Assembly (NCBI GenBank): GCA_039804025.1
Contig: JBDRZP010000005.1
Location: 28,273 to 92,272, forward strand
DNA from: a candidate division WOR-3 bacterium
GTDB taxonomy: Bacteria > Hydrothermota > Hydrothermia > Hydrothermales > JAJRUZ01
DNA length: 64,000 nt
Reading direction: 5' to 3'
Positions 3,664-49,593 of this stretch are shown piece after piece (position 1 is the first letter of the stretch; every line of letters begins with the position of its first letter). The notes beneath the pieces were generated by a model. It was not told where the DNA came from and searched no databases. It saw only the letters and a program-made list of their open reading frames with translations. A program made the position numbers and the translations under genes.

Positions 3664-3682
3664 TTTTATTTTAAGAGTTTTA

Positions 3683-3710
3683 AAGGATTTGCACCTTATC
3701 TATTATTATA
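3683..3710 (-). promoter_or_regulatory. Extended -10 box followed by a T-loop-like leader hairpin (AAGG-TGCAAAT-CCTT)
   Basis: Minus strand reads TG-T-TATAAT(3710-3705)-aatagat-AAGGTGCAAATCCTT(3697-3683)-19 AT-rich nt-ATG(3663); no SD. Confidence 0.65.
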
Positions 3711-3738
3711 ACATAAAAAAAATTCAAGGTTTTTAAAT

Positions 3739-3765
3739 ATATTGGATTTTTCTGGCTCAATAAGA
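3739..3765 (-). repeat. 27-bp motif shared with the duplicated 36.2 kb and 40.7 kb element
   Basis: Minus strand tcttattgagccagaaaaatccaatat; 26/27 identical to 40930-40956 and 25/27 to 36468-36494. Confidence 0.85.
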
Positions 3766-3845
3766 GTGTTATAAATATACAAATACAGAATGAAAATAAA
3801 AGGCTACTTTATAAATTTTAAAAAAGTAAAAATTCTATTACACAA

Positions 3846-3921
3846 TCGGGGAGAGGGGATTTGAACCCCTGACCTCCTGGTCCCGAACCAGGCGCGCTAA
3901 ACCGGACTGCGCTACTCCCCG
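3846..3921 (-). tRNA. tRNA-Pro (anticodon CGG); 3' CCA not encoded
   Basis: Minus strand CGGGGAGTAGCGCAGTCCGGTTTAGCGCGCCTGG-TTCGGGA-CCAGGAGGTCAGGGGTTCAAATCCCCTCTCCCCGA gives a full cloverleaf; followed by TTG, not CCA. Confidence 0.97.
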
Positions 3922-3934
3922 TATTTATATTTTA

Positions 3935-4282
3935 TTATATCCTGGATAATAAATTCTCTATTTGCTCCTGTAAGGAAAATGAATTATTTTCAAGTTCAAG
4001 AAATATACTGAAACCTTTCAGTTTTTCCTTTAAATTTTTATTAGCCTTTGTCACAATAACCACAAAGGGAAAATCATATTCACTAATATTTAAACTAAAA
4101 ATTTTTTCACCTATTTTACCAGGATCAAGAATAAAACACTTTACATCTGAAGGATTAAATTTTCCTAAATCGCCAAAATCTTCAAGATTTATAATCTCAT
4201 AGCCTTCAAGAACGAAATAAGGCTCTATCTTTTTAAACTCTTCCTCGTAAACCATAGCTAGAATCAAATTTTTTTCCATCAA
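3935..4282 (-). CDS. Hypothetical protein, possibly a degenerate receiver-like alpha/beta fold
   Basis: 115-aa ORF with genome-typical composition; alternating beta/alpha pattern (LILAMVYEEE...CFILDPG...PFVVIVTK). Confidence 0.55.
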   Translation of the reverse strand: MMEKNLILAMVYEEEFKKIEPYFVLEGYEIINLEDFGDLGKFNPSDVKCFILDPGKIGEKIFSLNISEYDFPFVVIVTKANKNLKEKLKGFSIFLELENNSFSLQEQIENLLSRI

Positions 4283-35593: not shown

Positions 35594-36163
35594 ATGGAAT
35601 TTTATGAATTGGTTTTGAATAGATTCAGTTGCAGGAAATTTAAAGATAAAAGTGTGGATAGGGAGAAAATTTTAAAGTGTATTGATGCTGCGAGACTTGC
35701 TCCATCTGCCTGTAATTCTCAACCCTGGAGATTTGTTGTTGTGGATGATGAGAAATTAATTAAAGAAATAGCAGAAATTGCTACAAAGGGAATATACGGT
35801 GTAATAAATAAATTTTTATTTGAGGTTCCATGTATAGTTGTTGTGGTAGCTGACAAAGAGAAATTTATAGCAAGGTTAGGAGCAAGAATTACTGGAACCC
35901 AGTATTATCTTATTGATATAGGAATATCGAGTGAGCATTTTGTATTGCAGGCTCAGGAACTCGGTTTAGGGACATGTTTCATTGGATACTTTAATGAAAG
36001 GGGTATAAAAAAGTTACTGAATATACCGAATAGATATAAGGTTCCTCTTTTAATTGCAGTTGGTTATCCAGATGATATATATAAGGAGGAAGATGTTATA
36101 AAGGTTAAACTTAAATCAAGGAAAAGTTTAGAGGAGATTGTGTCTTTTAATAAATTCTTATAA
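35594..36163 (+). CDS. Nitroreductase family protein
   Basis: RFSCRKF, ARLAPSACNSQPWRF, LQAQELGLGTCFIG, IAVGYP, RKSLEEIV. Confidence 0.95.
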   Translation: MEFYELVLNRFSCRKFKDKSVDREKILKCIDAARLAPSACNSQPWRFVVVDDEKLIKEIAEIATKGIYGVINKFLFEVPCIVVVVADKEKFIARLGARITGTQYYLIDIGISSEHFVLQAQELGLGTCFIGYFNERGIKKLLNIPNRYKVPLLIAVGYPDDIYKEEDVIKVKLKSRKSLEEIVSFNKFL

Positions 36164-36236
36164 AATGATTTTACTCTTAAAGCCAATTGATGAAAAATTT
36201 TAAAGAGATATTAGATAATGGGAAAAGGTAAAAATT

Positions 36237-36259
36237 CGCAGGCTAAAGCCTGCGTCTAC
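36237..36259 (-). repeat. GTAG-type REP hairpin (left)
   Basis: Minus strand GTAG-A-CGCAGGC-TTTA-GCCTGCG; perfect 7-bp stem. Confidence 0.85.
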
Positions 36260-36310
36260 CATTTTTTTTGAAAATTTTTAACATTTATTACCATATTCTA
36301 TAATTTTATG

Positions 36311-36333
36311 GTAGCCGCACCCTTTAGGGTGCG
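36311..36333 (+). repeat. GTAG-type REP hairpin (right)
   Basis: Plus strand GTAG-C-CGCACCC-TTTA-GGGTGCG; perfect 7-bp stem with compensatory changes relative to the left REP. Confidence 0.85.
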
Positions 36334-36516
36334 CAAAAATTCACTATCAAATTTTTTGAAAAATATACAGCGAGGCAACAGAGATGCTTTTGGAGTTAAA
36401 AAGTTTTGCGGTATATTTATGGAAAAAGAAAAATTAAGAACATTTTGTCTTAGGTATTTTTTTTTAATCTTATTGAGCCAGAAAAATTCAACATTGTTAT
36501 GGTATTCTATATTTAA

Positions 36517-36546
36517 TTGACTTATTATTTGTGGAGAGTATAAAAT
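36517..36546 (+). promoter_or_regulatory. Putative sigma70 promoter at the right junction of element copy 1
   Basis: TTGACT(36517-36522), then TATAAA after 16 nt or TAAAAT after 18 nt; SD AAGGAGG before ATG 36565. Confidence 0.5.
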
Positions 36547-36564
36547 ATAAAAAAGGAGGTTAAT

Positions 36565-37506
36565 ATGAATTTAATAGTATTTTTCTTTATAAATAAGTAT
36601 GCCTATGCAGTTTTACCTTATGAATCAAGGAATGTTGATTCCACTGTTTATAGAATTGTTATTGATTATATGGAGGAGGAACTTTCCTCTTATGGAAGTG
36701 TTCTTGAAAGGAATAAGGCTCAAGAGCTTCTTCTTAAAGTAAAAGAATGTGAAAGTGACATTTGTTTAAAGAAATACTCGGAAGAATACGATTTGGAAAA
36801 TATGGTATTTGTTTATCTTGATAGACTCGGTGAAAAATACCTCTTAAGGGTTAAAGTTTTTAATTCAAAGGAAGGTAAATTTGTTTACAATCAGAGAGAT
36901 ATTGCTGACAGGGAATCAGATTTAAATATTATTGTTGAGAGAATGGCAAAATCTGTATATGAAGGAAAAAGCATTGAAAAAGTCGTTACAACAGAAACAA
37001 TTACAGGTTATGAAGCTGAAAAAGAACCAAGAAAGAGACTTACAAGGAGATATTTAACTGCAAGGGTAGGTTCAATTTTCCCTTTAACAGGATATTATGA
37101 TGAAAATAGGGATGTTCCTTTGAATCTATCAAGATTTATTCTTGGATTTCATTATGAAGTAAAAAAGACATCAGTTTCCCTTGAATATGCTGTTTTTTCA
37201 AGAGGTTTTGGATTTGAATTTCCTGTAAGGTTTTATACTTCAACCGGAGATAATGCTCTATTTTATGAATTTGTGCCTGGTTACTATTTTATGCCTGATA
37301 TTTATGAAAACGGATACTGGTATTATGATGGTAGTGGTCGCAAAATTGCTGGAGGAAATGGACCTGCTCTTGGAATAGGTGGGGGTTTTATTCTTTTTCA
37401 CACTTATGATATTCAATTTATTATAGATGCAAAATACCTTTTTATTTTAAATAATGGTCCTGATTCAGGAGTTGAAATAACTTTCGGGCTTTTGGCCGGA
37501 AGGTAA
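36565..37506 (+). CDS. Exported protein: CsgG/TolB-N-like alpha/beta domain plus a C-terminal beta-barrel-like domain
   Basis: Short hydrophobic N-terminus; AVLPYESRNVD...ECESDIC...YLLRVKVFN; amphipathic aromatic strands in the C-terminal half. Confidence 0.65.
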   Translation: MNLIVFFFINKYAYAVLPYESRNVDSTVYRIVIDYMEEELSSYGSVLERNKAQELLLKVKECESDICLKKYSEEYDLENMVFVYLDRLGEKYLLRVKVFNSKEGKFVYNQRDIADRESDLNIIVERMAKSVYEGKSIEKVVTTETITGYEAEKEPRKRLTRRYLTARVGSIFPLTGYYDENRDVPLNLSRFILGFHYEVKKTSVSLEYAVFSRGFGFEFPVRFYTSTGDNALFYEFVPGYYFMPDIYENGYWYYDGSGRKIAGGNGPALGIGGGFILFHTYDIQFIIDAKYLFILNNGPDSGVEITFGLLAGR

Positions 37507-37518
37507 GTTAGTTAAAAC

Positions 37519-38016
37519 TTAAGGGACTTTTTCAAGGGTATTGGAAAGCACATTTTTCATAAAATGAAGGTCCTGTAATGTTTTTAAATTTATTTTTCTT
37601 TTCTTTAAATTAATAAGGTCTTCTAAGGATATAACATAAACTTTTGTTTCACCAAGTTTTTTTTCTACAATCTTATAATCCTTTATATTTTCTTTTAAGT
37701 GCAGTTTAATTCTCCATGGAAAAATTCTCCTGTGATAAAAAATTAAAAATTCCTCTTGAAAACTTTCTTTGTTTTTTAAATACTCATATAAAAATTTGTA
37801 TTTTATATTTCCTTTTATTTTCATCCCCATATTCTGCATTAATTTTATAAATCTTTCAAGGTTCTTATCTTCAAAATCAATTATTAAGTCTATATATCTT
37901 ATTTTTTTTCTAACCCCCCACATATATGTGGCTGTATCGCCGAAGATTGTGAAATTTATGTTGTATTTTTCAAAAAAATTAAAAAACCTTTCAAATTTTA
38001 GGAGATACTTTTTCAT
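37519..38016 (-). CDS. Minimal nucleotidyltransferase-fold protein with degenerate motifs
   Basis: FTIFGDTATYMWG..RKKIRYIDLIID and SLEDLINLK..LQDL resemble GG.A...G..R.T.DID and LEDLI..K...D..D. Confidence 0.55.
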   Translation of the reverse strand: MKKYLLKFERFFNFFEKYNINFTIFGDTATYMWGVRKKIRYIDLIIDFEDKNLERFIKLMQNMGMKIKGNIKYKFLYEYLKNKESFQEEFLIFYHRRIFPWRIKLHLKENIKDYKIVEKKLGETKVYVISLEDLINLKKRKINLKTLQDLHFMKNVLSNTLEKVP

Positions 38017-38065
38017 TTTTGCTTTTTACTATTATAAATATTTAATGATAAATTTTTCAAATATA

Positions 38066-39505
38066 CTATCTTTTTGTAAGAACGCTTTTTTCTATTGCTA
38101 CATTTGTACTCACAATATTAATATGTTTTACAAAGTAATAAAGGCTACTTAAAGAAAAGAGGAAAAGCCATGGTATTGCACCCCAGATTTTCAGTTTGAA
38201 AGCTAAAAAAATGGAAATAAAGGAATAGAAAATTTTTAAAATTTCTGATATACCTATCTCATATTTTACAGAGTAAGCTTTTCTTGTCCCATTTCCCTTT
38301 TTGGGAGTTCTTTCAAAAATAAAATCCTTTTTGAAAATTGCTTCAAGAACAGCTTTTGTTCCTTCAAAACAGAAAGAAGTAAAAACTATTATCAAATAAA
38401 ACATATCTTTAAGTCTCCACTCATATAAGTAATCTTTTCTTACTTTTTTATCTATTGTCCATATGTTATATAAATTTACCATACCAAGAAAAAGAACAAG
38501 AAGTCCAAAGAGTATATGTGAATATCTTGATAAAGGCCAAATAATAACAAAGTAGATTACATTTAAAAGGTAAAGGAAAGGTGAAAGGGTATGGATTAAA
38601 ATATTAAGTTTATCCTCTCTATCTAAATTTGATTTCAAAATGCTCTTCCATAGCTTCAGACCGACCTGAAAAGTTCCTTTTGTCCACCTTTTTTGCTGAA
38701 TTAAAAAAGCATTAAAATCTGTGGGTAATTCAGAAGAAACTAAAAGATCATCTAAAAAAATCCCCTTGAATCCTTTAAGGTGACTTCTTATTGATAAATC
38801 AAGGTCTTCTGCAAGGGTATCTTCATGCCAGTTACCTGCTTCAATTATAGCAGATTTTCTCCATATTCCAGCAGTTCCGTTAAAATTAAAGAAGAAACCA
38901 CTTTTAAACTTTGCCTCCTGCTCAAGCCAGAAGTGATTTCTTAAAAGCATTGCCTGAATTCTTGTAAGTAAGTTTTCATTTTCATTTATATAATCCCATT
39001 TTGCCTGAACGAAAGCTACTTTTGGATCTTCAAAATAGGGAAGGGTTCTTTTTAAAAAATCAGCGGGTATTATAAAATCAGCATCAAATATTGCCACAAA
39101 CTCTCCTTTTGCATATTTAAGTCCATTTTTAAGTGCTCCTGCTTTGAATCCCTTTCTATTATCTCTTCTTATTGCGTAGATATTAAATCCTTCTTTTCTC
39201 TTAATTTCAACAAGTCTATCAACAAGTTCCTTTGTTTCATCAGTTGAATCATCAAGTATTTGAATTTCGAATTTTTCCTTTGGATAATCAATTTTTACAG
39301 CACTCTCCACTATTCTTTCCACTACATTAAACTCATTATAAATTGGTATCTGAATTGTAGTAAAGGGAAATTCCTTAATTTCCTTCTGGGGCAATTTTAC
39401 TTTTTCTGAATTTCTGTAAAGAAGTAAAAGCCAAAGTCTATATGCCCCAAAAATTGCAAATAGCAAAAAAACCGGAAAAAATAAAAATAAATAAAGAAAA
39501 TACAT
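38066..39505 (-). CDS. Processive GT2 glycosyltransferase (cellulose-synthase-like / CslA-type)
   Basis: QIPIYNE, ILDDSTD, GFKAGAL, IFDADF, LAEDLDLS, QQKRW; multiple TMs. Confidence 0.92.
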   Translation of the reverse strand: MYFLYLFLFFPVFLLFAIFGAYRLWLLLLYRNSEKVKLPQKEIKEFPFTTIQIPIYNEFNVVERIVESAVKIDYPKEKFEIQILDDSTDETKELVDRLVEIKRKEGFNIYAIRRDNRKGFKAGALKNGLKYAKGEFVAIFDADFIIPADFLKRTLPYFEDPKVAFVQAKWDYINENENLLTRIQAMLLRNHFWLEQEAKFKSGFFFNFNGTAGIWRKSAIIEAGNWHEDTLAEDLDLSIRSHLKGFKGIFLDDLLVSSELPTDFNAFLIQQKRWTKGTFQVGLKLWKSILKSNLDREDKLNILIHTLSPFLYLLNVIYFVIIWPLSRYSHILFGLLVLFLGMVNLYNIWTIDKKVRKDYLYEWRLKDMFYLIIVFTSFCFEGTKAVLEAIFKKDFIFERTPKKGNGTRKAYSVKYEIGISEILKIFYSFISIFLAFKLKIWGAIPWLFLFSLSSLYYFVKHINIVSTNVAIEKSVLTKR

Positions 39506-39525
39506 TTGGTGAATATATTTTAATT

Positions 39526-40602
39526 TTAGTATGGTCTTAAAAGCAAGTTAAAAAGAAAATAAAAGTAAATTGAATATTTAATCACATTTGATAAATTTTT
39601 CTTTTCTCTTTTAAGATAATTCCAGAAAAGTGATATAAAGGTAAAAAGGAATATAAGAGTAAAAATTATTAGATAGATTTCAAAAAAACTTAAAGAGCCT
39701 GAAAAAAGTGATTTTAAAGAAGTTTTATTGAAAGCAGAACCATAAACAACTAATAGATGTGAATAATATACAAGGAGTGATTCCATTCCGAGGATTTTTA
39801 TAATATTCAAGAATTTATTTTCTTTATTTTCTAATTGATATAAAATTAAGGATAAAAGAGTTAAATTAAAGATTTTAAAATAAATAGAGGCGACAAAATT
39901 TGTAAAAGGTTTTAATAAAAGGTATATTAAAAAATTTATTAATGCAAAAATTATAAAATAAAAATTTTTATTTTCCTTTTTTATCACTAAATATCCGAGA
40001 AAAACACCTGAAAAAAGGTATATGGAAAAGGGTGTTAAGGGAAAGTTTGAATTTTTAAAATACTTATAGAAGAAGAGGGGTAAATCAGGTTCAAATCCTT
40101 TATTAATAAAGAAACTTAAAATTGAAAAAATAAAAATTAAAAAAAAGTTTGTAATTAAAAAAAATTTCTCCTTTTTGGTAATAAAATAAAAAAATTGAAG
40201 TATTAATAGGCTTACTCCTATACATTGAAGGATATCAACATTAAAGAAATTATTCCAATCATTAAATTTTGAATATAATAATATTTTTCTTAAGGAAAAA
40301 TAGGGAAGATGAAGGGTATAACCAAGTAAAATAATAAAAAGTATTCTTCTTATTCTTGTAAATAATTTTTCAGAAAAAACAAGGTATTCTTTTCTATCTA
40401 TTGTTGATAAAGCAAAGCTTATTCCTGAAGCAAAAAGAAAAAGGGGAGCAGTGTATCCTCTAACATGCATCCAGGTCTGGTAAAAGAGGGATGATTTCTG
40501 GGAAATTGAAAGCAGGGCATCAAGGGAATGTCCGTTAATCATTTCAATAACAGCGATACCTCTTAAAAGGTCAAGGAATAAAAACCTTTTTTTATCTTTC
40601 AC
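39526..40602 (-). CDS. Membrane acyltransferase (DUF1624 / HGSNAT-like)
   Basis: RFLFLDLLRGIAVIEMINGH, APLFLFASGIS, DILQCIG, SLLVYYSHL; about 10 TMs. Confidence 0.8.
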   Translation of the reverse strand: MKDKKRFLFLDLLRGIAVIEMINGHSLDALLSISQKSSLFYQTWMHVRGYTAPLFLFASGISFALSTIDRKEYLVFSEKLFTRIRRILFIILLGYTLHLPYFSLRKILLYSKFNDWNNFFNVDILQCIGVSLLILQFFYFITKKEKFFLITNFFLIFIFSILSFFINKGFEPDLPLFFYKYFKNSNFPLTPFSIYLFSGVFLGYLVIKKENKNFYFIIFALINFLIYLLLKPFTNFVASIYFKIFNLTLLSLILYQLENKENKFLNIIKILGMESLLVYYSHLLVVYGSAFNKTSLKSLFSGSLSFFEIYLIIFTLIFLFTFISLFWNYLKREKKNLSNVIKYSIYFYFLFNLLLRPY

Positions 40603-40674
40603 CTTATTATTTTATGAAAATTTATGAATTAGAATAAAAGATAGTAAAGGTATAATTGTTTTTTTTGACATTTA

Positions 40675-40980
40675 ATGAAAAATTTTAAAGAGATATTAGA
40701 TAATGGGAAAAGGTAAAAATTACCATTTTTTTGAAAATTTTTAACATTTATTCTCATATTCTATAATTTTATGGTAGCCTTACCCTTTAGGGTTCGCAAA
40801 AATTCATTATCAAATTTTTTGAAAAATATACAGCGAAGCAACAGAGATGCTTTTGGAGTTAAAAAGGTTTGCGGTATATTTATGGAAAAAGAAAAATTAA
40901 GAACATTTTGTCTTAGGCATTCCTTTTAATCTTATTGAGCCAGAAAAATTCAATATTGTTATGGTATTCTACATTTAATT
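40675..40980 (+). repeat. Duplicated intergenic element, copy 2 (306 bp); left REP deleted, right REP decayed
   Basis: aaaaat|taccatttt lacks tcgcaggctaaagcctgcgtc; right REP reads gtagccttaccctttagggttcgc; ACATTTAAT direct repeat at 40668-40676 and 40971-40979. Confidence 0.95.
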
Positions 40981-41001
40981 TTAAATTTTGTTTTTTTTAA
41001 T

Positions 41002-41028
41002 TATAATTAGTTTTTGGGTCCAATTCCT
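41002..41028 (+). promoter_or_regulatory. -10 box followed by a T-loop-like leader hairpin (GGG-TCCAATT-CCT)
   Basis: TATAAT 41002-41007, hairpin 41016-41028, SD AAGGAGG 41048-41054, ATG 41059. Confidence 0.55.
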
Positions 41029-41058
41029 AATAAAATTTTTTTCCCTAAGGAGGTTATA

Positions 41059-43260
41059 ATGATAAAATCATTTGGAGTGGTAAATACAATGAGAGGAGTT
41101 AAGTTTTTTACTCCTTACAGGTCTGAACCTGAAATAAAAGAAGAAAAACACTTATTAAAACAAGCTTCAGGAAAGAAAAAAAATTTTTTGAAAAAATTCT
41201 TATTTTTTACTTTTTTTACTATTCCCTTAATCTTCTCTGATTCCTTAAATGTTAGATTAATAGGTTTCTGTGATACACCTCAATGGGCTGTTGGTGTATT
41301 TTTATCTTTTCCTTATGCCTATGTTGCAGATGTTGCTGATCTTCCAATTATAGATGTGTCAGACCCTTACAATCCTTTTATAGCCAGTAACATTTATACA
41401 CCAAATAGTGCTGGTGATGTTTATGTTTCAGGTAATTATGCATATATTGCGGATGGTAATGACGGTCTCCGTGTTGTGAAAGTTTTACCAGATGAAAAAT
41501 ACTCTTATGACATAATTGGTAGTAGTGCTGTGGATTTGTTTGTTGCGGGTAACTTTATCTATGTTGCAGATTTGGATCGGGGGCTCTGTATCCTTCAGGG
41601 GGGTGTTGAGGTAGGTTATTATGATACACCTGGCTGGGTGGAAGATGTATATGTTGTGGGAAATTATGCTTACCTTGCTGACATGACAGCACTAAGGATT
41701 ATTGATGTTTCTAATCCATCATCCCCTTATGAAGTGGGTTCCTGTGGTATGCCGTATCCTGCAGCGACACCAAGTGTTTATGTTTCCGGTTCCTATGCCT
41801 ATATGGCTGTAGGCGATTCAGGTCTATGTATTGTTAATATTTCAAATCCTTCAAGTCCATATGTTGTAGGTAAGTATGTCACACCGGGTTCTGCTAATGG
41901 AGTGTTCGTTTCAGGTTCATATGCATATGTGGCAGATGCATCTGGTGGGTTACGTGTTATAGATGTTTCAAATTCTTCAAATCCTTATGAAGTCAGTAAT
42001 TGTTCTACTCCTGACTGGGCATTGGATGTTTTTATTTCAGGAAATTTTGCCTATATTGCAGCAAATAATTCTGGATTACGAATTGTTGATATTTCTGATC
42101 CCTTAAACCCATATGAGATAGGTTTTTTTGATACACCGGATAAGGCATTTGGTGTATTTGTTTCAGGTTCCAATGCTTATGTGGCGGATTTAAATTCTGG
42201 TCTTCAAATAATAGATATTTCAAATCCAGTAAATCCACGCCGAAAAGGTTATTACGATACTCCTGGTTCTGCCATGGGTGTTTTTGTCTCCGGTGCTTAT
42301 TACCCTTATGCCTATATTGCAGATGGTTCAGCCGTAAGAGTTATTGATATCAATTTCCCTTACGAGACCGGAGTCTGTAATACCCCTGGTTCCGCCTCTG
42401 GTGTTTATAAATCAGGAAATTACGCATATGTTGCTGATCAGGACGGAGGACTCAGAATAGTTGATGTGCAGGACCCTTTCAGCCCGTTTGAAAGGGGTTA
42501 TTTATCCATGCCTTCTTATGCAAATGAAATCTGTGGAAACTCCTTCTATGCCTATGTAGCAGACGGTCTTTCGGGATTACGGATTGTATATGTATATTAT
42601 CCTGGTTCTCCTTCAGAAGTCGGATATTATGATACGCCTGGTTTTGCATTAAATGTTTATGTTTCAGGAAATTATGCTTATGTTGCTGATGGTGATTTTG
42701 GTATTCGTATAGTTAATATTTCTAACCCCTCAAATCCCTATGAAGTTGGATACTATGATACACCCGGATTTGCTGTGTCTGTTTATGTTGAAGATACTTT
42801 TGCTTATGTAGCAGATCGCTGGAGTGGTATTAGGGTTTTGAATGTAAGTGATCCATCAAATCCATATGAAGTTGGTTTTCACACTACACCTGATGATGCC
42901 TGGGATGTTTTTGCTTTAAACTCCTATATTTATGTTGCCACTGATTGGTATGGATTAGGGATTTATCAATTTTATACTACTGAAATTGAAGAAAAAAATA
43001 GTTTAACAGAACAGAATTTTAGGATTATTTCTAACATTGCAAAAGATGGTATTACACTAAATTTGGGATCTAATTCCAATAAAGGCAATCTTAATTTACC
43101 AGTTTATAATGTTCTTGGTCAAAAGGTAAAAGACTTTAATATACTTCCGGGTACTGAAACAAAAAGAATTAATCTTTTAATTTCTGAAATTAAAAGTGGT
43201 GTATATTTTTTGAAAATTAAAGGAAAAAAGGAAAGCTTAAAAATTGTAAAAATTCCCTGA
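41059..43260 (+). CDS. Secreted LVIVD-repeat protein (14 repeats) with a T9SS-like C-terminal tail
   Basis: 14 copies of about DTPG.A..V.VSG.YAYVAD...GLRIVD.S.P..P; hydrophobic signal ending ...PLIFS-DSLNVRLIG; tail GVYFLKIKGKKESLKIVKIP; start at SD-preceded ATG 41059. Confidence 0.92.
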   Translation: MIKSFGVVNTMRGVKFFTPYRSEPEIKEEKHLLKQASGKKKNFLKKFLFFTFFTIPLIFSDSLNVRLIGFCDTPQWAVGVFLSFPYAYVADVADLPIIDVSDPYNPFIASNIYTPNSAGDVYVSGNYAYIADGNDGLRVVKVLPDEKYSYDIIGSSAVDLFVAGNFIYVADLDRGLCILQGGVEVGYYDTPGWVEDVYVVGNYAYLADMTALRIIDVSNPSSPYEVGSCGMPYPAATPSVYVSGSYAYMAVGDSGLCIVNISNPSSPYVVGKYVTPGSANGVFVSGSYAYVADASGGLRVIDVSNSSNPYEVSNCSTPDWALDVFISGNFAYIAANNSGLRIVDISDPLNPYEIGFFDTPDKAFGVFVSGSNAYVADLNSGLQIIDISNPVNPRRKGYYDTPGSAMGVFVSGAYYPYAYIADGSAVRVIDINFPYETGVCNTPGSASGVYKSGNYAYVADQDGGLRIVDVQDPFSPFERGYLSMPSYANEICGNSFYAYVADGLSGLRIVYVYYPGSPSEVGYYDTPGFALNVYVSGNYAYVADGDFGIRIVNISNPSNPYEVGYYDTPGFAVSVYVEDTFAYVADRWSGIRVLNVSDPSNPYEVGFHTTPDDAWDVFALNSYIYVATDWYGLGIYQFYTTEIEEKNSLTEQNFRIISNIAKDGITLNLGSNSNKGNLNLPVYNVLGQKVKDFNILPGTETKRINLLISEIKSGVYFLKIKGKKESLKIVKIP

Positions 43261-43288
43261 GATAATTTTCAAACTTACCTGAATCTTT

Positions 43289-44458
43289 TTAAATATTTTC
43301 CTCTAAATATTCAATAAATTTTTCCATACCTTCTTTTATCCTATTTTCTGTTTGTGTTAGAGAAAATCTTAAATAGGATTCACCATATTTCCCATAACCT
43401 GACCCAGGACCTATCATCACTCCTTTTTTATCTATCAAATCAGAAACTATTTTCATTGAATCCTTTTCCTTTGAATTCATTTCAGCCCATACATAAATTG
43501 TTGAGTCAGAGTTATAGTAACGCCACCCTATTTTTTCTAAATATTCCTTTATAATTTTTCTTCTTTCTTTATATATTTTTCTTAATTGAGGAGTAAAAGA
43601 ATCGTATAATTCAATTGCCTTAATCGCAGCTTTTTGAATGGGTATAAAAACACCAGAATCTGTATTTGTTTTAATAATTGACAGTGCTTTTAGAATTTCC
43701 TTTGAACCACATGCCCATCCTATTCTAAAACCCTGCATATTGTATGTTTTTGAAAAGGAATGTATTTCAACAGCTATCTCTTTTGCCCCATCAACTTCAA
43801 AAATTGAAGGAGGAGCCTCGTCTTCATAGATCTCTGAATAGGCATTGTCGTGAATTATATATATTCCCCATTTATTACAAAAATCAAAAAGTTCTCTAAA
43901 AAATTTTATATCAGCCCTTTTTGATGTTGGATTGTTAGGGTAATTTAAAATAATAATCTTTGTCTTATTTAAAATACTTTTTTTAATAGAATTTAAATCA
44001 GGCAAAAAATCATTTTCCTTTAAAAGAGGTAATTCATAGGGAATTGACCCTGAAAATAATACTGAGGTTCTATATGTAGGATACGCTGGGTCTGGTATTA
44101 GAGCATAATCTCCCTTTTCACAGAGAGCAAGAAAGAGATGGGTTATACCTTCCTTTCCTCCTATCAGAATCATTATCTCTTCTTCAGGATCCATAAAAAC
44201 TTTAAATCTTTTTTTCATCCATTCTGAAATTTTTTTTCTTAAATCTATTAATCCCCAGTAAGAAGGATATTTGTAAAAATCTTTTTCTGAAAGAGATTTT
44301 TTTAATTCTTCAACTACTTCATGAGGAGGCTCTAAATCAGGGTCTCCATGAGCGATGTTTATTATATCAAGACCTTTTTCTTTTGCTCTTTTTATTGCTT
44401 CATCCATTTCAGCGTATATATAAGGGGGAACACCCCTTATCCTTTCAGGAAATTTCAT
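43289..44458 (-). CDS. Class I/II PLP aminotransferase, LL-diaminopimelate aminotransferase-like
   Basis: HGDPD, IGGKEGI, PDPAYPTY, LNYPNNPT, HDNAYSE, SFSKTYNMQGFRIGW; clustered with lysC and lysA. Confidence 0.85.
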   Translation of the reverse strand: MKFPERIRGVPPYIYAEMDEAIKRAKEKGLDIINIAHGDPDLEPPHEVVEELKKSLSEKDFYKYPSYWGLIDLRKKISEWMKKRFKVFMDPEEEIMILIGGKEGITHLFLALCEKGDYALIPDPAYPTYRTSVLFSGSIPYELPLLKENDFLPDLNSIKKSILNKTKIIILNYPNNPTSKRADIKFFRELFDFCNKWGIYIIHDNAYSEIYEDEAPPSIFEVDGAKEIAVEIHSFSKTYNMQGFRIGWACGSKEILKALSIIKTNTDSGVFIPIQKAAIKAIELYDSFTPQLRKIYKERRKIIKEYLEKIGWRYYNSDSTIYVWAEMNSKEKDSMKIVSDLIDKKGVMIGPGSGYGKYGESYLRFSLTQTENRIKEGMEKFIEYLEENI

Positions 44459-45681
44459 TTTTCACTCCTTTCAAATAATCTTTTTAAAATTTCAAAAGTT
44501 TTATAAGCATCTTTTTTCTCAATAAAAGTCATTATGTCAGTATGGAGTGTTAATATTTCCCATATATTTATTCCCTCTTTTGAAATTGGTGTAACAATTT
44601 TTTTTATTACACCTGGCTCATTTATAAATTTTAAACTTCTTATTAGAATTTTTTTAATCCCCTTTTTAATATTAAGCATTTTTAAATTTTTGATCTTTTT
44701 GAGAAGTGTAGAAAGAAGAAGATAACCCCTTTCAGAATCCTCTTCAAGAAGATATATGGAAATTAAATTATCTGATATAGTTATTGAGTATATGGAGATA
44801 TTCTCTTCATAAAGTTTTTTTGAAATCTCATAAAGGATACCTGGTGTTTCTGGTAATCTATTTCCTACAAAAGTGAGCACTGAGAAATTTTCATCCTCCA
44901 TAGATATTTTGATCTTTTCCCTGAAAAGAACTTTTGTTCCCTTTTTAAATTCAGGGGATACAACCTTCATTTTTTCTATATTTTCAGTATATTTGAGGGC
45001 AAGGGGATTTAAAACTTTTGCTCCTGAAGAACTTAAAATACCGAGTTCCTCAGAAAAAATTTTTTTTATTCTTTTTGTTCTTTTCAAAATTGAAGGATTT
45101 CCACTTAATATACCGCCTGTATCCTTTAAAAATATAACTTCCTTCAAATTTAAAAGTTCTGCTATTAAAACACCTGATATATCACTTCCTCCCCTTCCAA
45201 GTGTTAAAATTCTACCTTTTCCATCTTTTGCTACAAAACCAGGAATAATTAAAACCCTGTATTTTTCAAAAAGAGGTAAAAAATGTTTCCTTACTTTGAT
45301 ATTACTTAAATTCAGGATATCAAAGTTTCTCTTATCCTCAGGCGAAGTTTTAGTTTCAATTGAAATGTAAATTGGCCATTCCCTCATCCACGGAAGAATT
45401 GTCTTTGCCCTTATATTTAAAAAATTAAAGGCAGATTCAAATAAAATTGAAGATTCTATCTCCCCTAAGGGTAAAAATCTTTCCATATTCCAGAAATCAG
45501 GTGAGGGGATTGCTCTTTTAAAGGTTTCATAGAGAGAATCGGTTTTCCCTTTCATTGCTGAGGTAACAAGTATTATCTTTGATTTTTTATAACTATTTAT
45601 AATATTCTCTGCCATTCTTAAATAATCTTCCGGTTTTTCTAATATAGAACCACCTATTTTAATTACCTTAATATTTCTCAT
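44455..45681 (-). CDS. lysC: Aspartate kinase with ACT domains
   Basis: VIKIGGS, VTSAMKGKTD, IPGF, LTLGRGGSD, KDTGGI..NP; two ACT-like C-terminal repeats. Confidence 0.85.
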   Translation of the reverse strand: MRNIKVIKIGGSILEKPEDYLRMAENIINSYKKSKIILVTSAMKGKTDSLYETFKRAIPSPDFWNMERFLPLGEIESSILFESAFNFLNIRAKTILPWMREWPIYISIETKTSPEDKRNFDILNLSNIKVRKHFLPLFEKYRVLIIPGFVAKDGKGRILTLGRGGSDISGVLIAELLNLKEVIFLKDTGGILSGNPSILKRTKRIKKIFSEELGILSSSGAKVLNPLALKYTENIEKMKVVSPEFKKGTKVLFREKIKISMEDENFSVLTFVGNRLPETPGILYEISKKLYEENISIYSITISDNLISIYLLEEDSERGYLLLSTLLKKIKNLKMLNIKKGIKKILIRSLKFINEPGVIKKIVTPISKEGINIWEILTLHTDIMTFIEKKDAYKTFEILKRLFERSEK

Positions 45682-46867
45682 TTCTTATAAAATCTTCAAA
45701 TTTACCTTTTTTCCTTATTAATTTAAATTTTCCATCAAAGAGATATTCAGGCGCTAAAAATCTTCCATTATAAGCCATTGCCATTGTCCTTGTATAGGCT
45801 CCACAGTTATGAATCAGAACTATATCACCTAACTTTAATTGAGGTAATTCATATTCTCCAAATTCATCTGTATTCTCACATAAAGGTCCTGCTACCCTTG
45901 ATTTTATTTTTCTGCCTTTAAAATTAAAAAGGGGTTCTATATGATGATAGGCATCATATAAAGCAGGTCTTATAAGTTCTGTCATTCCTGCATCAATTAT
46001 ATAAAGAGGAGTACCTTTTCTTTCTTTTATTGATATAACTCTTGAAAGAATAAAACCAGCATTAGCTACGATAAATCTTCCTGGTTCTAAAAATATTTTA
46101 ACATTATAATTTTTATTAAGATTTTTATAACACTCCACTATTGGATCAAAGTCAAGTTTTTTATCCTCAGGATGATAGGGAACACCAAAACCTCCTCCAA
46201 GATTTACATGGGTGATTTTGAATCCATTTTCTCTTAAATAAATCAAAGTTTCAATAACTTTTTTTGTTGCTTCAATAAAGGGCTCGGGATTTAAAATTTG
46301 TGAACCTATATGAGAATGGATGCCTATAAGGTGAGCGTACTTAAAATTCTTTATTATCTTAATATTATTCTTAATCTCATCAAAATGCATTCCAAATTTA
46401 CTTGAAGGGGAGCCTGTAGAAAGGTGTTCGTGAGTATCCGGAAATATACCTGGGTTTATTCTAACAAAAACTTTTATCTTTTTTCTTTCTTTTTTTGCAC
46501 ACTTTTCAAGTAATAAAGCCTGATCTATCGATTCAAAATTAAAATAAATTATTCCTCTTTTTATTGCAAATAAAACTTCCTCTTCTTTTCTTGCTATATT
46601 GTTATAAAGAATTTTATCTCCCGAAAATTCTGCTTTTAAGGAAATAAAAATTTCACCAGGAGAAACAACCTCTGCCCCTAACCCCATTTCCTTTATAATT
46701 TTTAAAATTGACAGAGATGTATTAGCCTTAACAGCAAAAAATATTTCAGCATTTGAAGAAGAAAATTTATTCTTTAAAAAGGAAATATTTTCTATTATTC
46801 CATCCTTTAAATATATATAGGATGGAGTAGGCAAAAGTTTGAGCTTTCTTTTAATTTGTTCTTCCAT
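45668..46867 (-). CDS. lysA: Diaminopimelate decarboxylase
   Basis: FAVKAN, VRINP, SKFG, HSHIGSQ, NLGGGFG, EPGRFIV, GPLCENTD, GAYT. Confidence 0.95.
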   Translation of the reverse strand: MEEQIKRKLKLLPTPSYIYLKDGIIENISFLKNKFSSSNAEIFFAVKANTSLSILKIIKEMGLGAEVVSPGEIFISLKAEFSGDKILYNNIARKEEEVLFAIKRGIIYFNFESIDQALLLEKCAKKERKKIKVFVRINPGIFPDTHEHLSTGSPSSKFGMHFDEIKNNIKIIKNFKYAHLIGIHSHIGSQILNPEPFIEATKKVIETLIYLRENGFKITHVNLGGGFGVPYHPEDKKLDFDPIVECYKNLNKNYNVKIFLEPGRFIVANAGFILSRVISIKERKGTPLYIIDAGMTELIRPALYDAYHHIEPLFNFKGRKIKSRVAGPLCENTDEFGEYELPQLKLGDIVLIHNCGAYTRTMAMAYNGRFLAPEYLFDGKFKLIRKKGKFEDFIRNEKY

Positions 46868-46886
46868 TTTTTGTTATCTTTAATTT

Positions 46887-47750
46887 TCATAAATTAGAAA
46901 TTCTAATTATAAGATTCATAAAATTTCTTTTCAATATTCTGTTTCCTAATTTTTTTAACCTTTCCATAGCAGGCTTAATAAATTTTTTAAACCATTTTTT
47001 ATTTTTTTTAATGGATAAAAAAGAATAGGCTGCAAGTGCTTGCATTAATCTTTGAGATGAGGTGAGTAAGTAATAATGATAAAATTCATCAAAGCTCATT
47101 TTTCTAAATCTATCTTTTATTCTATCGTAATAATAAAACAAAAGTTTTTCCTTAACAGTTTCATTAATTTCTACATAGGGATCTTCAAGAAGGGATGAAA
47201 GGTCATAGGTGAAAGGTCCTATATGAGCAGTTTGAAAATCAGTTATTCTTATTTTATTTTGTTTTAAAAAAATATTTGTTGATTGAAAATCCCTGTGCAT
47301 AAAAAGCTTCGGCATTTTATTACATTCTTTTGCAAGTTTATCAAAATCCTTATCCATTTCCTTTAATTCCTCTTCTTTGAATTTTAAAAAATTTATCAGG
47401 AATTCCCTTTTAAAATAATCTGTCTCCCATCTTAAAGATTCATAATCAAAAATTTTTTTTCTTTTTAAGGATAAATTTAAAAAACCTTCTTTTGCCTTAA
47501 ACTGAAGTTCTATTAAAAAATCAATTATTCTTTTATATAAATTGAAAGTTTCTTTTTTATAAATTTTAAAAATAGATTTTTCTCCAAGGTCTTCAATAAT
47601 AGCAATTTTATTTTCTAAATCATAAAAATAAATTTTTGGGGCTGAAAGCATTTTTTTATTTAAAAAATTTCCTATCTTTATATAATTTAAAAACTGAATT
47701 TCATCACTATCCTTTAAAATAACAGAATTTTTTAATTCTTTTATTCTCAA
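46887..47750 (-). CDS. amgK: MurNAc/GlcNAc anomeric kinase (AmgK-like phosphotransferase); true start probably upstream of 47750
   Basis: IEDLG, MHRDFQSTNI, DFQTAHIGP..YDLSSLLED, QRLMQALAAY; the frame stays open 17 codons upstream and includes LSGGSDRIF. Confidence 0.8.
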   Translation of the reverse strand: MRIKELKNSVILKDSDEIQFLNYIKIGNFLNKKMLSAPKIYFYDLENKIAIIEDLGEKSIFKIYKKETFNLYKRIIDFLIELQFKAKEGFLNLSLKRKKIFDYESLRWETDYFKREFLINFLKFKEEELKEMDKDFDKLAKECNKMPKLFMHRDFQSTNIFLKQNKIRITDFQTAHIGPFTYDLSSLLEDPYVEINETVKEKLLFYYYDRIKDRFRKMSFDEFYHYYLLTSSQRLMQALAAYSFLSIKKNKKWFKKFIKPAMERLKKLGNRILKRNFMNLIIRISNL

Positions 47751-47790
47751 AAAAATTCTGTCAGAACCACCGCTTAAAATCTTTATTTTT

Positions 47791-48465
47791 TTAATAATTC
47801 CTTAAATATAAATTAAAAAGAGTTTTAAAACTACCTATGTCAAAAATAAAACCTTCTTTCACTTTAAATCCCGCAAGTTCCTTATATTTTATCAATTTAA
47901 AAAAAACATCAAGTAAATCACTTTTACCTTCAGGTATAAATCTGAAAATTTCCTTTTTAAAAATTGAAATTCCCGCATAGGTCAAAAATTTATTTTTTCT
48001 TTTATGAATTTTAATATCTCTTACTAAATTTCCTTCTAAAATTACTTCGCTTTTTGTTTCCATAAAAGTAAGAAGTAAAGTCCCAATTTTAGAATTTTTA
48101 AAGTGGAAATCAACAAGTTCATTTAAATCAATATTATAATAAATATCACAGTTATGTAATATAAAATCACCTTCAATATATTTTTCAAAATTTTTTACTC
48201 CACCACCAGTTCCCATAAGTTCCTTTTCCTTAAAAATAAAAATTATATCTTTATATTCTGAATTTTTAATAATTTTTTCTATTTTATCTTTTTTATAATA
48301 AAGGTTAACATAAATTTTTTTTACACCTAAATTTTTCAGATTATCAAAAATATGAAAAATAATGGGTTTTCCTTTAATTTTTATAAGTGGTTTCGGAATA
48401 AAAAAACTCAAAGGTCTTAATCTTTTTGAATAACCTGCTGAAAGAACCACCCCTCTTTCAATCAT
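47791..48465 (-). CDS. murU: MurNAc-alpha-1-phosphate uridylyltransferase-like nucleotidyltransferase
   Basis: VLSAGYSKRLRPLS...PKPL, NLYY, GTGGG, NCDI, FDIGS; ATG 48465 overlaps the namZ stop; lies between namZ and amgK. Confidence 0.8.
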   Translation of the reverse strand: MIERGVVLSAGYSKRLRPLSFFIPKPLIKIKGKPIIFHIFDNLKNLGVKKIYVNLYYKKDKIEKIIKNSEYKDIIFIFKEKELMGTGGGVKNFEKYIEGDFILHNCDIYYNIDLNELVDFHFKNSKIGTLLLTFMETKSEVILEGNLVRDIKIHKRKNKFLTYAGISIFKKEIFRFIPEGKSDLLDVFFKLIKYKELAGFKVKEGFIFDIGSFKTLFNLYLRNY

Positions 48466-49591: not shown

Positions 49592-49593
49592 AG

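What the first reader, a model, noticed from the sequence alone, without database searches (positions are those of the whole stretch)
36190..36518. REPIN-like inverted REP pair inside a 330-bp element duplicated 4.5 kb away
Seen: two GC-rich hairpins in inverted orientation, both preceded by ATG-GTAG: GTAG-A-CGCAGGC-TTTA-GCCTGCG (minus, 36259-36237) and GTAG-C-CGCACCC-TTTA-GGGTGCG (plus, 36311-36333). They share a TTTA loop and show compensatory stem changes. The element recurs at 40675-40980, and both copies sit directly upstream of exported-protein genes. A TATAAT at 36299-36304 would start a transcript at about the GTAG of the right REP. The -35 (TTGACT) of the next promoter spans the element/flank junction. 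Established: GTAG plus hairpin REPs are substrates of RAYT (IS200-like TnpA-REP) HUH transposases. No RAYT is present in the window. Inference: a non-autonomous element carrying or supplying promoter sequence to surface-protein genes.
Basis: partly seen in the sequence, partly recalled or inferred. Interest (0 to 1): 0.7.

Follow-up and report, generated by a model that had tools for sequence, protein, structure and literature searches.

The report
REPIN nested in a defective IS
The two GC-rich hairpins are a real pair of REP repeats, passengers of a RAYT transposase that a sister strain carries, and they sit inside a dead insertion-sequence fragment present twice in the window; this is a known kind of bacterial selfish DNA, seen here in the little-studied WOR-3 phylum, and it does not supply the neighbouring gene's promoter.

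Summary
Two perfect GTAG-tagged hairpins lie head-to-head at 36237-36260(-) and 36310-36333(+). They are the only such hairpins in 64 kb, and the surrounding ~320-bp element recurs at 40676-40973 at 95.6% identity.

The hairpins belong to a REP family (GGTAG-N-CGCA-NNN-TTTA-NNN-TGCG) found in more than 20 phylum-level labels. Its free stem positions are complementary in 126 of 143 copies.

The whole doublet, spacer included, aligns at 84-89% with units that directly flank a RAYT gene in a sister-strain WOR-3 MAG. That RAYT passes the NCBIfam REP_Tyr_transpos cut-off and keeps the HUH and Tyr motifs. The same MAG shares 97% nucleotide identity with window 36512-40620. So the reading "REPIN-like, RAYT-dependent" is supported, although no RAYT was found in this assembly itself.

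The 320-bp element is not the RAYT substrate. It is an internally deleted IS relic: a TG...CA-ended left end, decayed HTH and rve transposase fragments, and a right end. The REP doublet is nested inside it.

Copy B is decaying. Its left hairpin is deleted (21 nt) and its right stem carries 3 substitutions.

The element-free sister strain already has the TTGACT/TAAAAT promoter, so the claim that the element supplies a promoter fails.

Verdict: a new member of a known kind, of modest interest.

The parts
36191..36511 (+). Copy A of the composite element: an internally deleted IS relic (TG...TA ends) carrying a nested REP doublet.
   Evidence: A/B alignment. Metagenome contigs start matching at 36191-36193 and stop at 36509-36511, with varied flanks. 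Homology to the sister strain resumes at 36512.
36191..36227 (+). IS left end, including the likely transposase start codon (ATG at 36218).
   Evidence: This is the highest-copy module: about 55-85 times the flank depth in X1/X2 and about 50-58 times in X8. In other copies it runs on into TAGATTAAAAAAACATAGAGAGGAAAAATT, which shares 16 nt (ATAGAGAGGAAAAATT) with the 5' end of the transposase relic in L145 (loose ends; sequence). The intact N-terminus P0004 begins MKKKKSVKNNDREEKL.
36228..36344 (.). REP doublet with short tails (REPIN-like, head-to-head heterodimer), nested in the IS relic. It takes the place of the first ~60 nt of the transposase gene.
   Evidence: Aligns end to end at 84-89% with units flanking the RAYT in L149. 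Inverted arms 36237-36262 / 36308-36333 are 81% complementary. Other contigs match exactly 36235-36333 in other contexts.
36237..36260 (-). Left REP: GGTAG-A-CGCAGGC-TTTA-GCCTGCG.
   Evidence: Minus-strand fold -17.9 kcal/mol, z = -5.2.
36261..36309 (.). Conserved doublet spacer. It contains the TATAAT at 36299-36304.
   Evidence: Conserved in the RAYT-flanking copies, except for a 7-nt TTCTATA indel. Depth is 22-40 times the flank.
36310..36333 (+). Right REP: GGTAG-C-CGCACCC-TTTA-GGGTGCG.
36345..36457 (+). Decayed transposase N-terminal (HTH) fragment, with frameshifts.
   Evidence: Window 36345-36496 is 86% identical over 155 aligned columns to the relic in L145 (E = 3e-45). It reads IKFFEKY / DAFGVKK / AVYLWKKK in three frames. 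The intact counterpart P0004 carries HTH_23/HTH_28.
36458..36497 (+). Decayed transposase C-terminal fragment (NLIEPEKFNI).
   Evidence: The L145 continuation hits the end of rve_3 (E = 0.003, below the cut-off).
36494..36511 (+). IS right end: GTTATGGTATTCTA(T/C)A.
   Evidence: Similar, by eye, to the sequence just past the end of the transposase reading frame in L145 (GTTATGGAATTATACA). Contig matches end at 36509-36511.
36517..36546 (+). Native promoter-like site of the 313-aa gene (TTGACT, 18 nt, TAAAAT). It is not part of the element.
   Evidence: It is present unchanged in the element-free sister strain L160.
40676..40973 (+). Copy B of the composite element (TG...CA ends), with a decaying REP doublet.
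40721..40722 (.). Site of the 21-nt deletion that removed the left hairpin in copy B. The head remnant TACCA is kept.
40773..40796 (+). Degraded right REP in copy B: GGTAGCCTTACCCTTTAGGGTTCG, with 3 stem substitutions.
   Evidence: Fold weakens from -15.2 to -8.6 kcal/mol.
40668..40676 (.). Left copy of the direct repeat ACATTTAAT flanking copy B. The duplicated target is TTTAA (40671-40675) if the element ends are TG...CA.
   Evidence: Read from the sequence.
40971..40979 (.). Right copy of the direct repeat ACATTTAAT (TTTAA at 40974-40978).
   Evidence: Read from the sequence.
3746..3765 (-). Isolated 20-nt exact fragment of the transposase C-terminal relic, upstream of a third exported-protein gene.

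Best explanation
**What it is.** The two hairpins form a head-to-head REP doublet (REPIN-like) of a GTAG-tagged REP family. The organism is a hot-spring bacterium of candidate division WOR-3.

**How such doublets work.** They are non-autonomous passengers of a RAYT, a domesticated IS200-like Y1 HUH transposase. The RAYT binds the folded hairpin plus the GTAG on single-stranded DNA, then cuts and rejoins nearby. This mechanism is established for the E. coli, S. maltophilia and Marinomonas systems. It is inferred here.

**What happened at this locus.**
1. The doublet became nested in a defective insertion sequence. That IS relic has a left end, the doublet in place of the first ~60 nt of the transposase gene, frameshifted HTH and rve transposase fragments, and a right end.
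2. The second copy 4.5 kb away arose by copying of this composite IS relic, not by RAYT action. Copy B has TG...CA ends and a TTTAA / ACATTTAAT flanking direct repeat.
3. Copy A sits at a synteny breakpoint and lacks matching flanks, as expected after recombination between IS-relic copies.
4. Since the duplication, copy B has lost its left hairpin and mutated its right stem. The doublet there is therefore not maintained.

**Promoter.** The promoter of the downstream gene is native and predates the element.

**Shown:** REP family membership, the doublet as a recurring unit, a RAYT flanked by the same doublet in a sister strain, the IS-relic homology, the element-free sister site with an intact promoter, and the decay of copy B.

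**Inferred:** RAYT-mediated mobility, the order of events, and mobilisation of the IS relic in trans.
For: **REP family**
- 143 scorable matches to GGTAGNCGCANNNTTTANNNTGCG were found in other genomes. 126 have complementary free stem triplets, of 13 compensatory types; chance would give 1 in 64.
- Y1_Tnp ORFs flanked by these REPs occur in four unrelated genomes.

**RAYT in a sister strain**
- P0009 scores 90.4 bits on NF047646 REP_Tyr_transpos (equivalog, cut-off 80).
- It aligns to PDB 4ER8 TnpAREP (E = 6e-8), with the HUH motif and the Tyr115-equivalent residue aligned.
- It lies at L149:3001-3477 in GCA_039803845.1, between two REP arrays.
- The same MAG holds the ortholog of window 36512-40620 at 97.4% nucleotide identity and of 46952-49802 at 94.9%.

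**Doublet as a unit**
- Window 36235-36340 aligns at 84-89% over 92-106 nt with L149 2871-2967, 3862-3959 and 3550-3640.
- Summed contig depth over the REPs is about 90-125 times the flank, and over the spacer 22-40 times.

**IS relic**
- (positive control), 64, 70 and 76 support the transposase homology and the modular copy structure.

**Promoter and decay**
- Element-free sister site with the same promoter.
- Decay of copy B.
Against: - No RAYT was found in the window or in either assembly that holds this exact locus. The RAYT is shown only for a strain at about 95-97% identity and for other WOR-3 MAGs.
- Copy numbers come from summed depths of short metagenome contigs. Other taxa in the same springs carry the same REP (for example Caldimicrobium MAGs). 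REP counts per genome are therefore upper bounds.
- No precise empty site for the doublet was recovered. The L-to-C junction contigs (36217->36345) are a different deletion variant.
- The IS terminal inverted repeats are weak, about 12 of 24 by eye.
- Copy A has no target duplication.
- No full-length transposase was recovered; all five hits are fragments. The IS family is unresolved: IS481 and IS630 both score far below their cut-offs.
- The minimum-energy fold keeps the two REPs as separate hairpins rather than one long hairpin.
Confidence: 0.75

Rival explanations
1. The 330-bp unit is a RAYT-dependent non-autonomous element that carries or completes promoters for surface-protein genes. TATAAT at 36299 would fire into the right REP, and the -35 TTGACT would be created at the junction.
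For: Both copies, plus a third fragment at 3746-3765, lie upstream of genes for exported proteins. The hexamers exist.
Against: - The sister strain has no element yet has the same TTGACT-18-TAAAAT 45 nt after the preceding gene.
- The promoter scan is at chance level.
- TATAAT is missing from two of the four aligned RAYT-flanking copies of the spacer.
- RNA contigs cover only the gene body 36683-37385 and do not bridge to the element.
- The 330-bp unit is IS-derived, not a REP unit.
Confidence: 0.08
2. The hairpins have been co-opted by the host. The left REP, nested in GGTA...TACC and followed by T8, would act as the intrinsic terminator or 3' mRNA stabiliser of the nitroreductase gene (35594-36163). 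This is compatible with a REP origin.
For: - On the plus strand, hairpin plus outer stem give -17.4 kcal/mol, followed by TTTTTTTT. The REP-less copy B gives only -5.4.
- In copy A the upstream gene is co-directional. In copy B, where the hairpin was lost, the upstream gene is divergent.
- Terminator and mRNA-stabiliser roles are proposed for REPs in general (PMC3733652).
Against: - This rests on a single locus.
- Seven nucleotides separate the strong stem from the T-run.
- The scan flags the hairpin as terminator-like only on the minus strand.
- No RNA 3'-end data exist.
- The right REP has no T-run on either strand.
Confidence: 0.15
3. A one-off local duplication of an intergenic stretch that contains two chance hairpins, with no mobile-element biology.
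For: Only two copies of the element, and only three REP-like sites, occur in the 64-kb window.
Against: - Depth over the REPs, the spacer and the IS ends is tens of times that of the flanks in six metagenome runs, with many different flanks.
- The same REP occurs in more than 120 loci of other genomes, with stem covariation.
- A RAYT is flanked by the same doublet.
Confidence: 0.01
4. The hairpins are subterminal ends of an IS200/IS605-type element (TnpA/TnpB) or of its palindrome-associated derivative, rather than REPs of a domesticated RAYT.
For: - The associated protein has the Y1_Tnp fold (PF01797).
- IS200/IS605 ends are also hairpins, with a guide tetranucleotide on their 5' side (PMC8266576).
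Against: - P0009 and P0006 pass the REP_Tyr_transpos equivalog cut-off and fail the IS200 model (24-27 bits against a cut-off of 55).
- The hairpins carry the GTAG tag and occur as inverted doublets and arrays on both sides of the gene, in REPtron fashion.
- No TnpB-like ORF recurs next to them among the 120 loci.
Confidence: 0.03

Closest known systems
REPIN-RAYT systems / REPtrons (Pseudomonas fluorescens REPINs; E. coli, S. maltophilia and Marinomonas TnpAREP; PMC3116915, PMC3333891, PMC8266576)
   Same: - A GTAG tag lies 5' of a short GC-rich palindrome.
- Two REPs in inverted orientation share a conserved spacer and recur as a unit.
- The cognate Y1 HUH transposase gene is flanked by the same repeats.
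- The perfect 7-bp stem resembles the group 3 type, and the TTTA loop is also the loop of the Marinomonas REP.
   Different: - The host is candidate division WOR-3 (30% GC, hot spring), not Proteobacteria.
- The two REPs of the doublet have different stems (a heterodimer).
- The RAYT is shown in a sister strain, not in this assembly.
- The RAYT group was not assigned.
- This particular copy is a passenger inside an IS relic.
GTAG-tagged REP superfamily with head-to-head (HH) dimers (Di Nocera et al. 2013, PMC3733652)
   Same: - Stems of 5-13 bp and short loops.
- HH dimers with conserved 20-100 bp spacers.
- Subfamilies with complementary stem changes.
- Occurrence in distant phyla.
   Different: I could not match the consensus to one of their 24 families, because the figure is not held. 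The exact 16-18-mers are absent from the searchable literature. Here the same 24-mer is shared by far more phyla than the paper's text describes for any one family.
BIMEs of E. coli (REP arrays with alternating orientation)
   Same: The RAYT-flanking arrays in L149 alternate REP orientation with regular linkers.
   Different: The window holds a single doublet, not an array. No IHF-type linker motifs were looked for.
MITEs / internally deleted IS derivatives of DDE (rve) transposons such as IS481 or IS3
   Same: - TG...CA ends and a short flanking direct repeat (copy B).
- Internal deletions that keep both ends.
- Many copies with modular deletion variants.
   Different: - The terminal inverted repeats are weak.
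- No intact parent IS was found.
- It carries a foreign REP doublet.
- The family is unresolved.
IS insertions into REPs (Tobes and Pareja 2006, cited in PMC3733652; ISPpu9, PMC8450116)
   Same: REPs and IS elements are physically nested.
   Different: The nesting is the other way round: here the REP doublet lies between the IS ends.

Membership tests
GTAG-tagged REP | GTAG tetranucleotide at the 5' foot of a short GC-rich palindrome. | tested here: met
   GGTAG + 1 nt + 7-bp stem + TTTA loop at 36260-36237(-) and 36310-36333(+). These are the only such hairpins in 64 kb.
GTAG-tagged REP | Many dispersed copies in the genome. | tested here: inconclusive
   Summed contig depth is 80-125 times the flank in X1/X2 and 12-43 times in X8, with many different flanks. 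This is metagenome data, however, and co-resident taxa carry the same REP. Only 3 sites lie in the 64-kb window.
GTAG-tagged REP | Stem kept by compensatory changes across copies. | tested here: met
   126 of 143 copies have complementary free triplets, of 13 complementary types.
REPIN (REP doublet forming a hairpin) | Two REPs in inverted orientation with a spacer, recurring as one unit. | tested here: met
   The unit 36235-36340 aligns at 84-89% with three to four units in L149. Contigs in other contexts match exactly 36235-36333.
REPIN (REP doublet forming a hairpin) | The two halves are complementary, so the whole can fold as one long hairpin. | tested here: inconclusive
   The arms 36237-36262 / 36308-36333 are 26 nt and 81% complementary. 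The minimum-energy ssDNA fold keeps two separate REP hairpins, and the central 45 nt are not palindromic.
REPIN-RAYT system (REPtron) | A RAYT gene in the same genome, flanked by the same REPs. | tested here: inconclusive
   Met in the sister-strain MAG GCA_039803845.1 (L149) and in other WOR-3 MAGs. Not found in the window. Not recoverable for the assemblies that hold this locus.
RAYT (REP-associated tyrosine transposase) | Y1 HUH fold with the HUH motif and catalytic Tyr; passes the curated family model. | tested here: met
   P0009 scores 90.4 bits on NF047646 (cut-off 80). It has DHLHL and aligns with Tyr115 of 4ER8.
RAYT (REP-associated tyrosine transposase) | Typically a single copy per genome, vertically inherited. 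| not testable with these tools
   Only MAG fragments are available.
RAYT (REP-associated tyrosine transposase) | Binds and cleaves its cognate single-stranded REP. | not testable with these tools
   Biochemistry is needed.
MITE / deleted IS derivative | Sequence homology to a transposase gene of a parent IS. | tested here: met
   Window 36345-36496 is 86% identical over 155 aligned columns to the relic in L145. Conceptual peptides hit the HTH N-terminus P0004 and the C-terminal fragments P0001-P0003 (E = 2e-24 to 7e-14). The rve_3 hit is weak.
MITE / deleted IS derivative | Terminal inverted repeats. | tested here: inconclusive
   TG...CA termini. About 12 of 24 terminal positions match when read by eye, and no tool reported a significant inverted repeat.
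MITE / deleted IS derivative | Target-site duplication. | tested here: inconclusive
   Copy B is flanked by ACATTTAAT / ACATTTAAT (TTTAA with TG...CA ends). Copy A has ATTGA versus TTTAA, with no duplication.

The most novel reading that the evidence does not exclude
One and the same 24-nt REP (GGTAG-N-CGCA-NNN-TTTA-NNN-TGCG, most often GGTAGCCGCAGGCTTTAGCCTGCG) serves RAYTs in more than 20 phylum-level lineages. These include WOR-3, Omnitrophota, Nitrospirota, Desulfobacterota, Ignavibacteriota, Planctomycetota, Verrucomicrobiota, Acidobacteriota, Elusimicrobiota and Clostridia. The adjacent RAYT proteins are only about 28-37% identical to each other. If this holds, either the DNA recognition module is far more conserved than the enzyme, or REP-RAYT systems move between phyla much more than the current picture of vertical inheritance with lineage-specific REPs allows.
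Probability: 0.3. Interest if true: 0.55.

Novelty: new member of a known kind. Interest (0 to 1): 0.35.

Why it matters
REP/RAYT systems have been characterised almost entirely in Proteobacteria. This locus documents one in an uncultured thermophilic candidate phylum, with a cognate RAYT available for biochemistry.

It also gives a clear example of how repeats pile up. A RAYT passenger became nested in a dead IS, was copied along with it, and then decayed by loss of the palindrome.

Practically, such composite repeats sit at synteny breakpoints and contig breaks in these MAGs. They also mimic regulatory elements. The sister-strain comparison shows that the apparent promoter donation here is an illusion.

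The wide sharing of one REP sequence across phyla is the one aspect that might interest specialists.

Tried and rejected
- **CRISPR-like array.** Rejected. Clustered hits in other genomes are spaced 48-230 nt apart and flank Y1_Tnp genes.
- **Known RNA family.** Nothing reaches gathering score in the window apart from one tRNA. The best sub-threshold hit on the element scores 24 bits against a gathering score of 79.
- **Left module L-M as a tandem duplicate of the transposase N-terminal region.** The local alignment is no better than shuffles; 33 of 500 reach the score. L is instead the IS left end.
- **The motif CTTATTGAGCCAGAAAAAT as a shared regulatory box upstream of exported-protein genes.** It is the coding remnant NLIEPEKFN of the transposase. 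The metagenome scan with it returned 24 loci, only one of them (L145) related.
- **Insertion versus deletion of the left hairpin.** I first read the 21-nt indel as a REP insertion at a GGTA site. Alignment with the RAYT-flanking doublets shows that the two-REP form is ancestral and that copy B kept the head remnant. It is a deletion.
- **RAYT in this very genome.** Eight of the eleven near relatives of P0009 (about 72-91% identical) were traced to contigs, and one more (P0006) matches the locus L082 already in hand. None lies in GCA_039804005.1, GCA_965648955.1 or the two runs known to hold this locus. Two (P0127, P0050) were not traced.
- **Transcription start from metatranscriptomes.** Only assembled contigs exist. 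They cover the gene body and say nothing about 5' ends.
- **Enrichment of any protein family other than RAYT near the REPs in 120 loci.** None was found.
Full report
**1. The observation**

- GGTAGACGCAGGCTTTAGCCTGCG lies on the minus strand at 36260-36237.
- GGTAGCCGCACCCTTTAGGGTGCG lies on the plus strand at 36310-36333.
- Their GTAG heads face each other, 49 nt apart. Both are preceded by AT and both have a TTTA loop.
- The stems differ by a compensatory change, GGC/GCC versus CCC/GGG.

The window is 29.7% GC, and these are its only perfect GC-rich hairpins of 6 bp or more. The motif GGTAGNCGCANNNTTTANNNTGCG, with up to 3 mismatches, matches three times against 0.04 expected. The third match is a degraded copy at 40773-40796.

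The surrounding element is duplicated. With ends at TG...(C/T)A, copy A is 36191-36511 and copy B is 40676-40973. They are 95.6% identical over 298 aligned bases. Two differences matter:
- Copy B lacks the left hairpin through a clean 21-nt indel.
- Three of the 13 substitutions fall in the right hairpin's stem. Its fold weakens from -15.2 to -8.6 kcal/mol.

**2. The hairpins belong to a large REP family**

The free stem triplets are complementary in 126 of 143 scorable matches, in 13 different complementary versions. Chance would give 1 in 64, so essentially every hit is a true family member.

The record titles span more than 20 phylum-level labels.

An unbiased clustering of all ORFs in these loci found one small family that sits between REPs. 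Its members are L038:106-573, L082:659-1144, L030:7294-7806 and L058:4556-5023. All four hit PF01797 Y1_Tnp.

A profile of the four finds 6,857 homologues. Several are named REP-associated tyrosine transposase or RayT by their sources.

**3. A RAYT with the same doublet in a sister strain**

Naming places the organism in candidate division WOR-3.

The WOR-3 RAYT P0009 (158 aa) has these properties:
- It passes the NCBIfam equivalog REP_Tyr_transpos (90.4 bits, cut-off 80) and fails the IS200 model.
- It aligns to the E. coli TnpAREP structure 4ER8 (E = 6e-8). The HUH motif (DHLHL) and the residue equivalent to Tyr115 are conserved.
- It lies in MAG GCA_039803845.1 at L149:3001-3477, between two arrays of REPs of alternating orientation. 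This is the REPtron layout described in PMC3333891 and PMC8266576.

The same MAG carries the ortholog of window 36512-40620 at 97.4% nucleotide identity and of 46952-49802 at 94.9%. It is therefore a sister strain, at about the species boundary.

The window's whole doublet, spacer included (36235-36340), aligns at 84-89% with L149 2871-2967, 3862-3959 and 3550-3640. The first of these is directly upstream of the RAYT start.

Weaker versions of the doublet flank RAYTs in other WOR-3 MAGs (L151, L154, L156, L157). The arms of the window's doublet are 26 nt long and 81% complementary.

So the pair is a genuine head-to-head REP doublet of the kind called a REPIN.

What is missing is a RAYT in this very genome:
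- There is none in the window.
- None of the near relatives of P0009 that I could trace lies in the two assemblies that hold this locus.
- RAYTs flanked by REP arrays assemble into contigs of about 900 nt, which binning would lose.

**4. Copy number**

Contigs of six hot-spring metagenome runs that hold this organism were laid on the locus. The unique flanks have depth about 10-11 in X1/X2 and 63 in X8.

| Region | Summed depth relative to flank (X2) |
|---|---|
| REP cores | 90-125 times |
| Doublet spacer | 22-40 times |
| 36194-36217 | 67-84 times |
| 36350-36457 | 2-9 times |
| 36458-36505 | 18-49 times |

Flanks and deletion joints are numerous and varied. REP counts are upper bounds, because co-resident taxa carry the same REP (for example Caldimicrobium MAGs).

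**5. What the 320-bp element is**

A metagenome scan with a conserved 19-mer gave one true relative, L145. There the sequence homologous to 36345-36497 continues into a decayed transposase C-terminus: NLIEPEKFNIELINYLLFYNTKKPHKSLNNSSPLDYF, which matches the end of rve_3 at E = 0.003.

A search with the conceptual peptides found only fragments. One of them is an intact N-terminus, MKKKKSVKNNDREEKLREIALKRLEIIKFFEKYGVEATKDAFGVARATVYLWKKK..., carrying HTH_23/HTH_28 domains.

The window reads IKFFEKY / DAFGVKK / AVYLWKKK in three different frames and then NLIEPEKFNI. It is a frameshifted, internally deleted transposase relic. It shares its main internal deletion with L145: 86% identity over 155 aligned columns.

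The ends are defined as follows:
- Metagenome contigs start matching at 36191-36193 and stop at 36509-36511, with different flanks.
- In most other copies the left module runs on after 36227 into TAGATTAAAAAAACATAGAGAGGAAAAATT, the transposase 5' region.
- So 36191-36227 is the IS left end with its start codon.
- GTTATGGTATTCTA(C/T)A is the right end. It resembles, by eye, the sequence just past the end of the transposase reading frame in L145.

The REP doublet (36228-36344) stands where about 60 nt of the transposase gene should be.

Copy B is flanked by the direct repeat ACATTTAAT (TTTAA with TG...CA ends), as expected of a transposition. Copy A has no matching flanks.

**6. Sister-strain comparison**

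In L160 the orthologous 313-aa gene follows a radical-SAM gene after 45 nt, with no element. Homology to the window starts at 36512 (TTTAATTGACTT...).

The sister already has TTGACT, 18 nt, TAAAAT, GGAGG and ATG. The -35 at the junction is therefore native DNA, and TTTAA is the target.

Upstream of 36512 the two genomes are unrelated. Copy A thus marks a synteny breakpoint, which fits recombination between IS-relic copies.

Window 40621-46951 is replaced by 22 nt in the sister. That segment includes copy B, the LVIVD/T9SS gene and three amino-acid metabolism genes.

**7. Direction of the indel**

The RAYT-flanking doublets all have two hairpins. Copy B still has the spacer and the head remnant TACCA. 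Copy B therefore lost its left hairpin; copy A did not gain one.

Other contigs show the right hairpin missing in the same way (GGTAGC|AAAAATTCAC). Loss of the palindrome appears to be the usual decay route.

**8. Function**

- Promoter-like sites are at chance frequency.
- The TATAAT in the spacer is missing from two of the four aligned RAYT-flanking copies (L149 2860-2985 and 3852-3975).
- Metatranscriptome contigs cover 36683-37385 only.
- The one plausible host use is termination. On the plus strand the left REP, enclosed by GGTA...TACC and followed by T8, folds at -17.4 kcal/mol downstream of the co-directional nitroreductase gene. The REP-less copy B folds at -5.4. This is a single case and untested.

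**9. Comparison with what is known**

GTAG-tagged REPs are described in PMC3733652, including head-to-head dimers with conserved 20-100 bp spacers, complementary stem subfamilies and occurrence in distant phyla. REPINs and RAYTs are described in PMC3116915 and PMC5581495. The role of GTAG, stem and loop in recognition is treated in PMC8266576, where the Marinomonas REP also has a TTTA loop.

The exact REP strings are not in the searchable literature. This does not prove novelty.

I file the finding as a new member of a known kind. The only part that goes beyond the ordinary is that one 24-mer is shared across so many phyla next to RAYTs that are only 28-37% identical to each other.

Noticed in passing
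window 40621-46951: A 6.3-kb segment is absent from the sister strain, where 22 nt stand in its place. It holds IS-relic copy B, the LVIVD/Por_Secre_tail gene, and aminotransferase, aspartokinase-like and DAP-decarboxylase-like genes. This is a strain-specific insertion or deletion next to the conserved 4-gene block.
   Followed up: partly
window 3746-3765 (-): A 20-nt exact fragment of the transposase C-terminal relic (CTTATTGAGCCAGAAAAAT...) lies between the tRNA gene (3846-3921, minus) and an exported-protein gene starting at 3663 (minus). It is a third IS remnant upstream of a secreted-protein gene.
   Followed up: partly
window 62901-62917 (-): A 17-nt exact match to the IS right end plus flank (ATTCTATATTTAATTG) lies in what looks like coding DNA (blastn-short E about 2e-4 to 1e-3). 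It may be chance.
   Followed up: no
The RAYTs next to it in four phyla are only 28-37% identical to each other, so the REP is far more conserved than the enzyme.
   Followed up: partly
P0013, P0127: RAYTs about 86% identical to the WOR-3 RAYT are deposited under Pacearchaeota and Aenigmatarchaeota MAG names. L030 and L113, which carry the REP, are labelled Klebsiella pneumoniae MAG. Mis-binning is likely, though transfer is possible.
   Followed up: no
L149:2600-2970 and 3590-3960: The ~370-nt REP array upstream of the RAYT is repeated directly downstream of it (991-nt period). The gene is therefore bracketed by direct repeats of an array, not only by inverted REPs.
   Followed up: no
window 36255 (position between GGTAG and the stem of the left REP): The left REP has A at this position. 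None of 143 copies in other genomes has A there (C 110, T 22, G 11).
   Followed up: no
L003, L004 and many Logan contigs: Short-read assemblies break inside the element: L003 starts at window position 36462 and L004 at 36406. These composite repeats therefore fragment WOR-3 MAGs.
   Followed up: no
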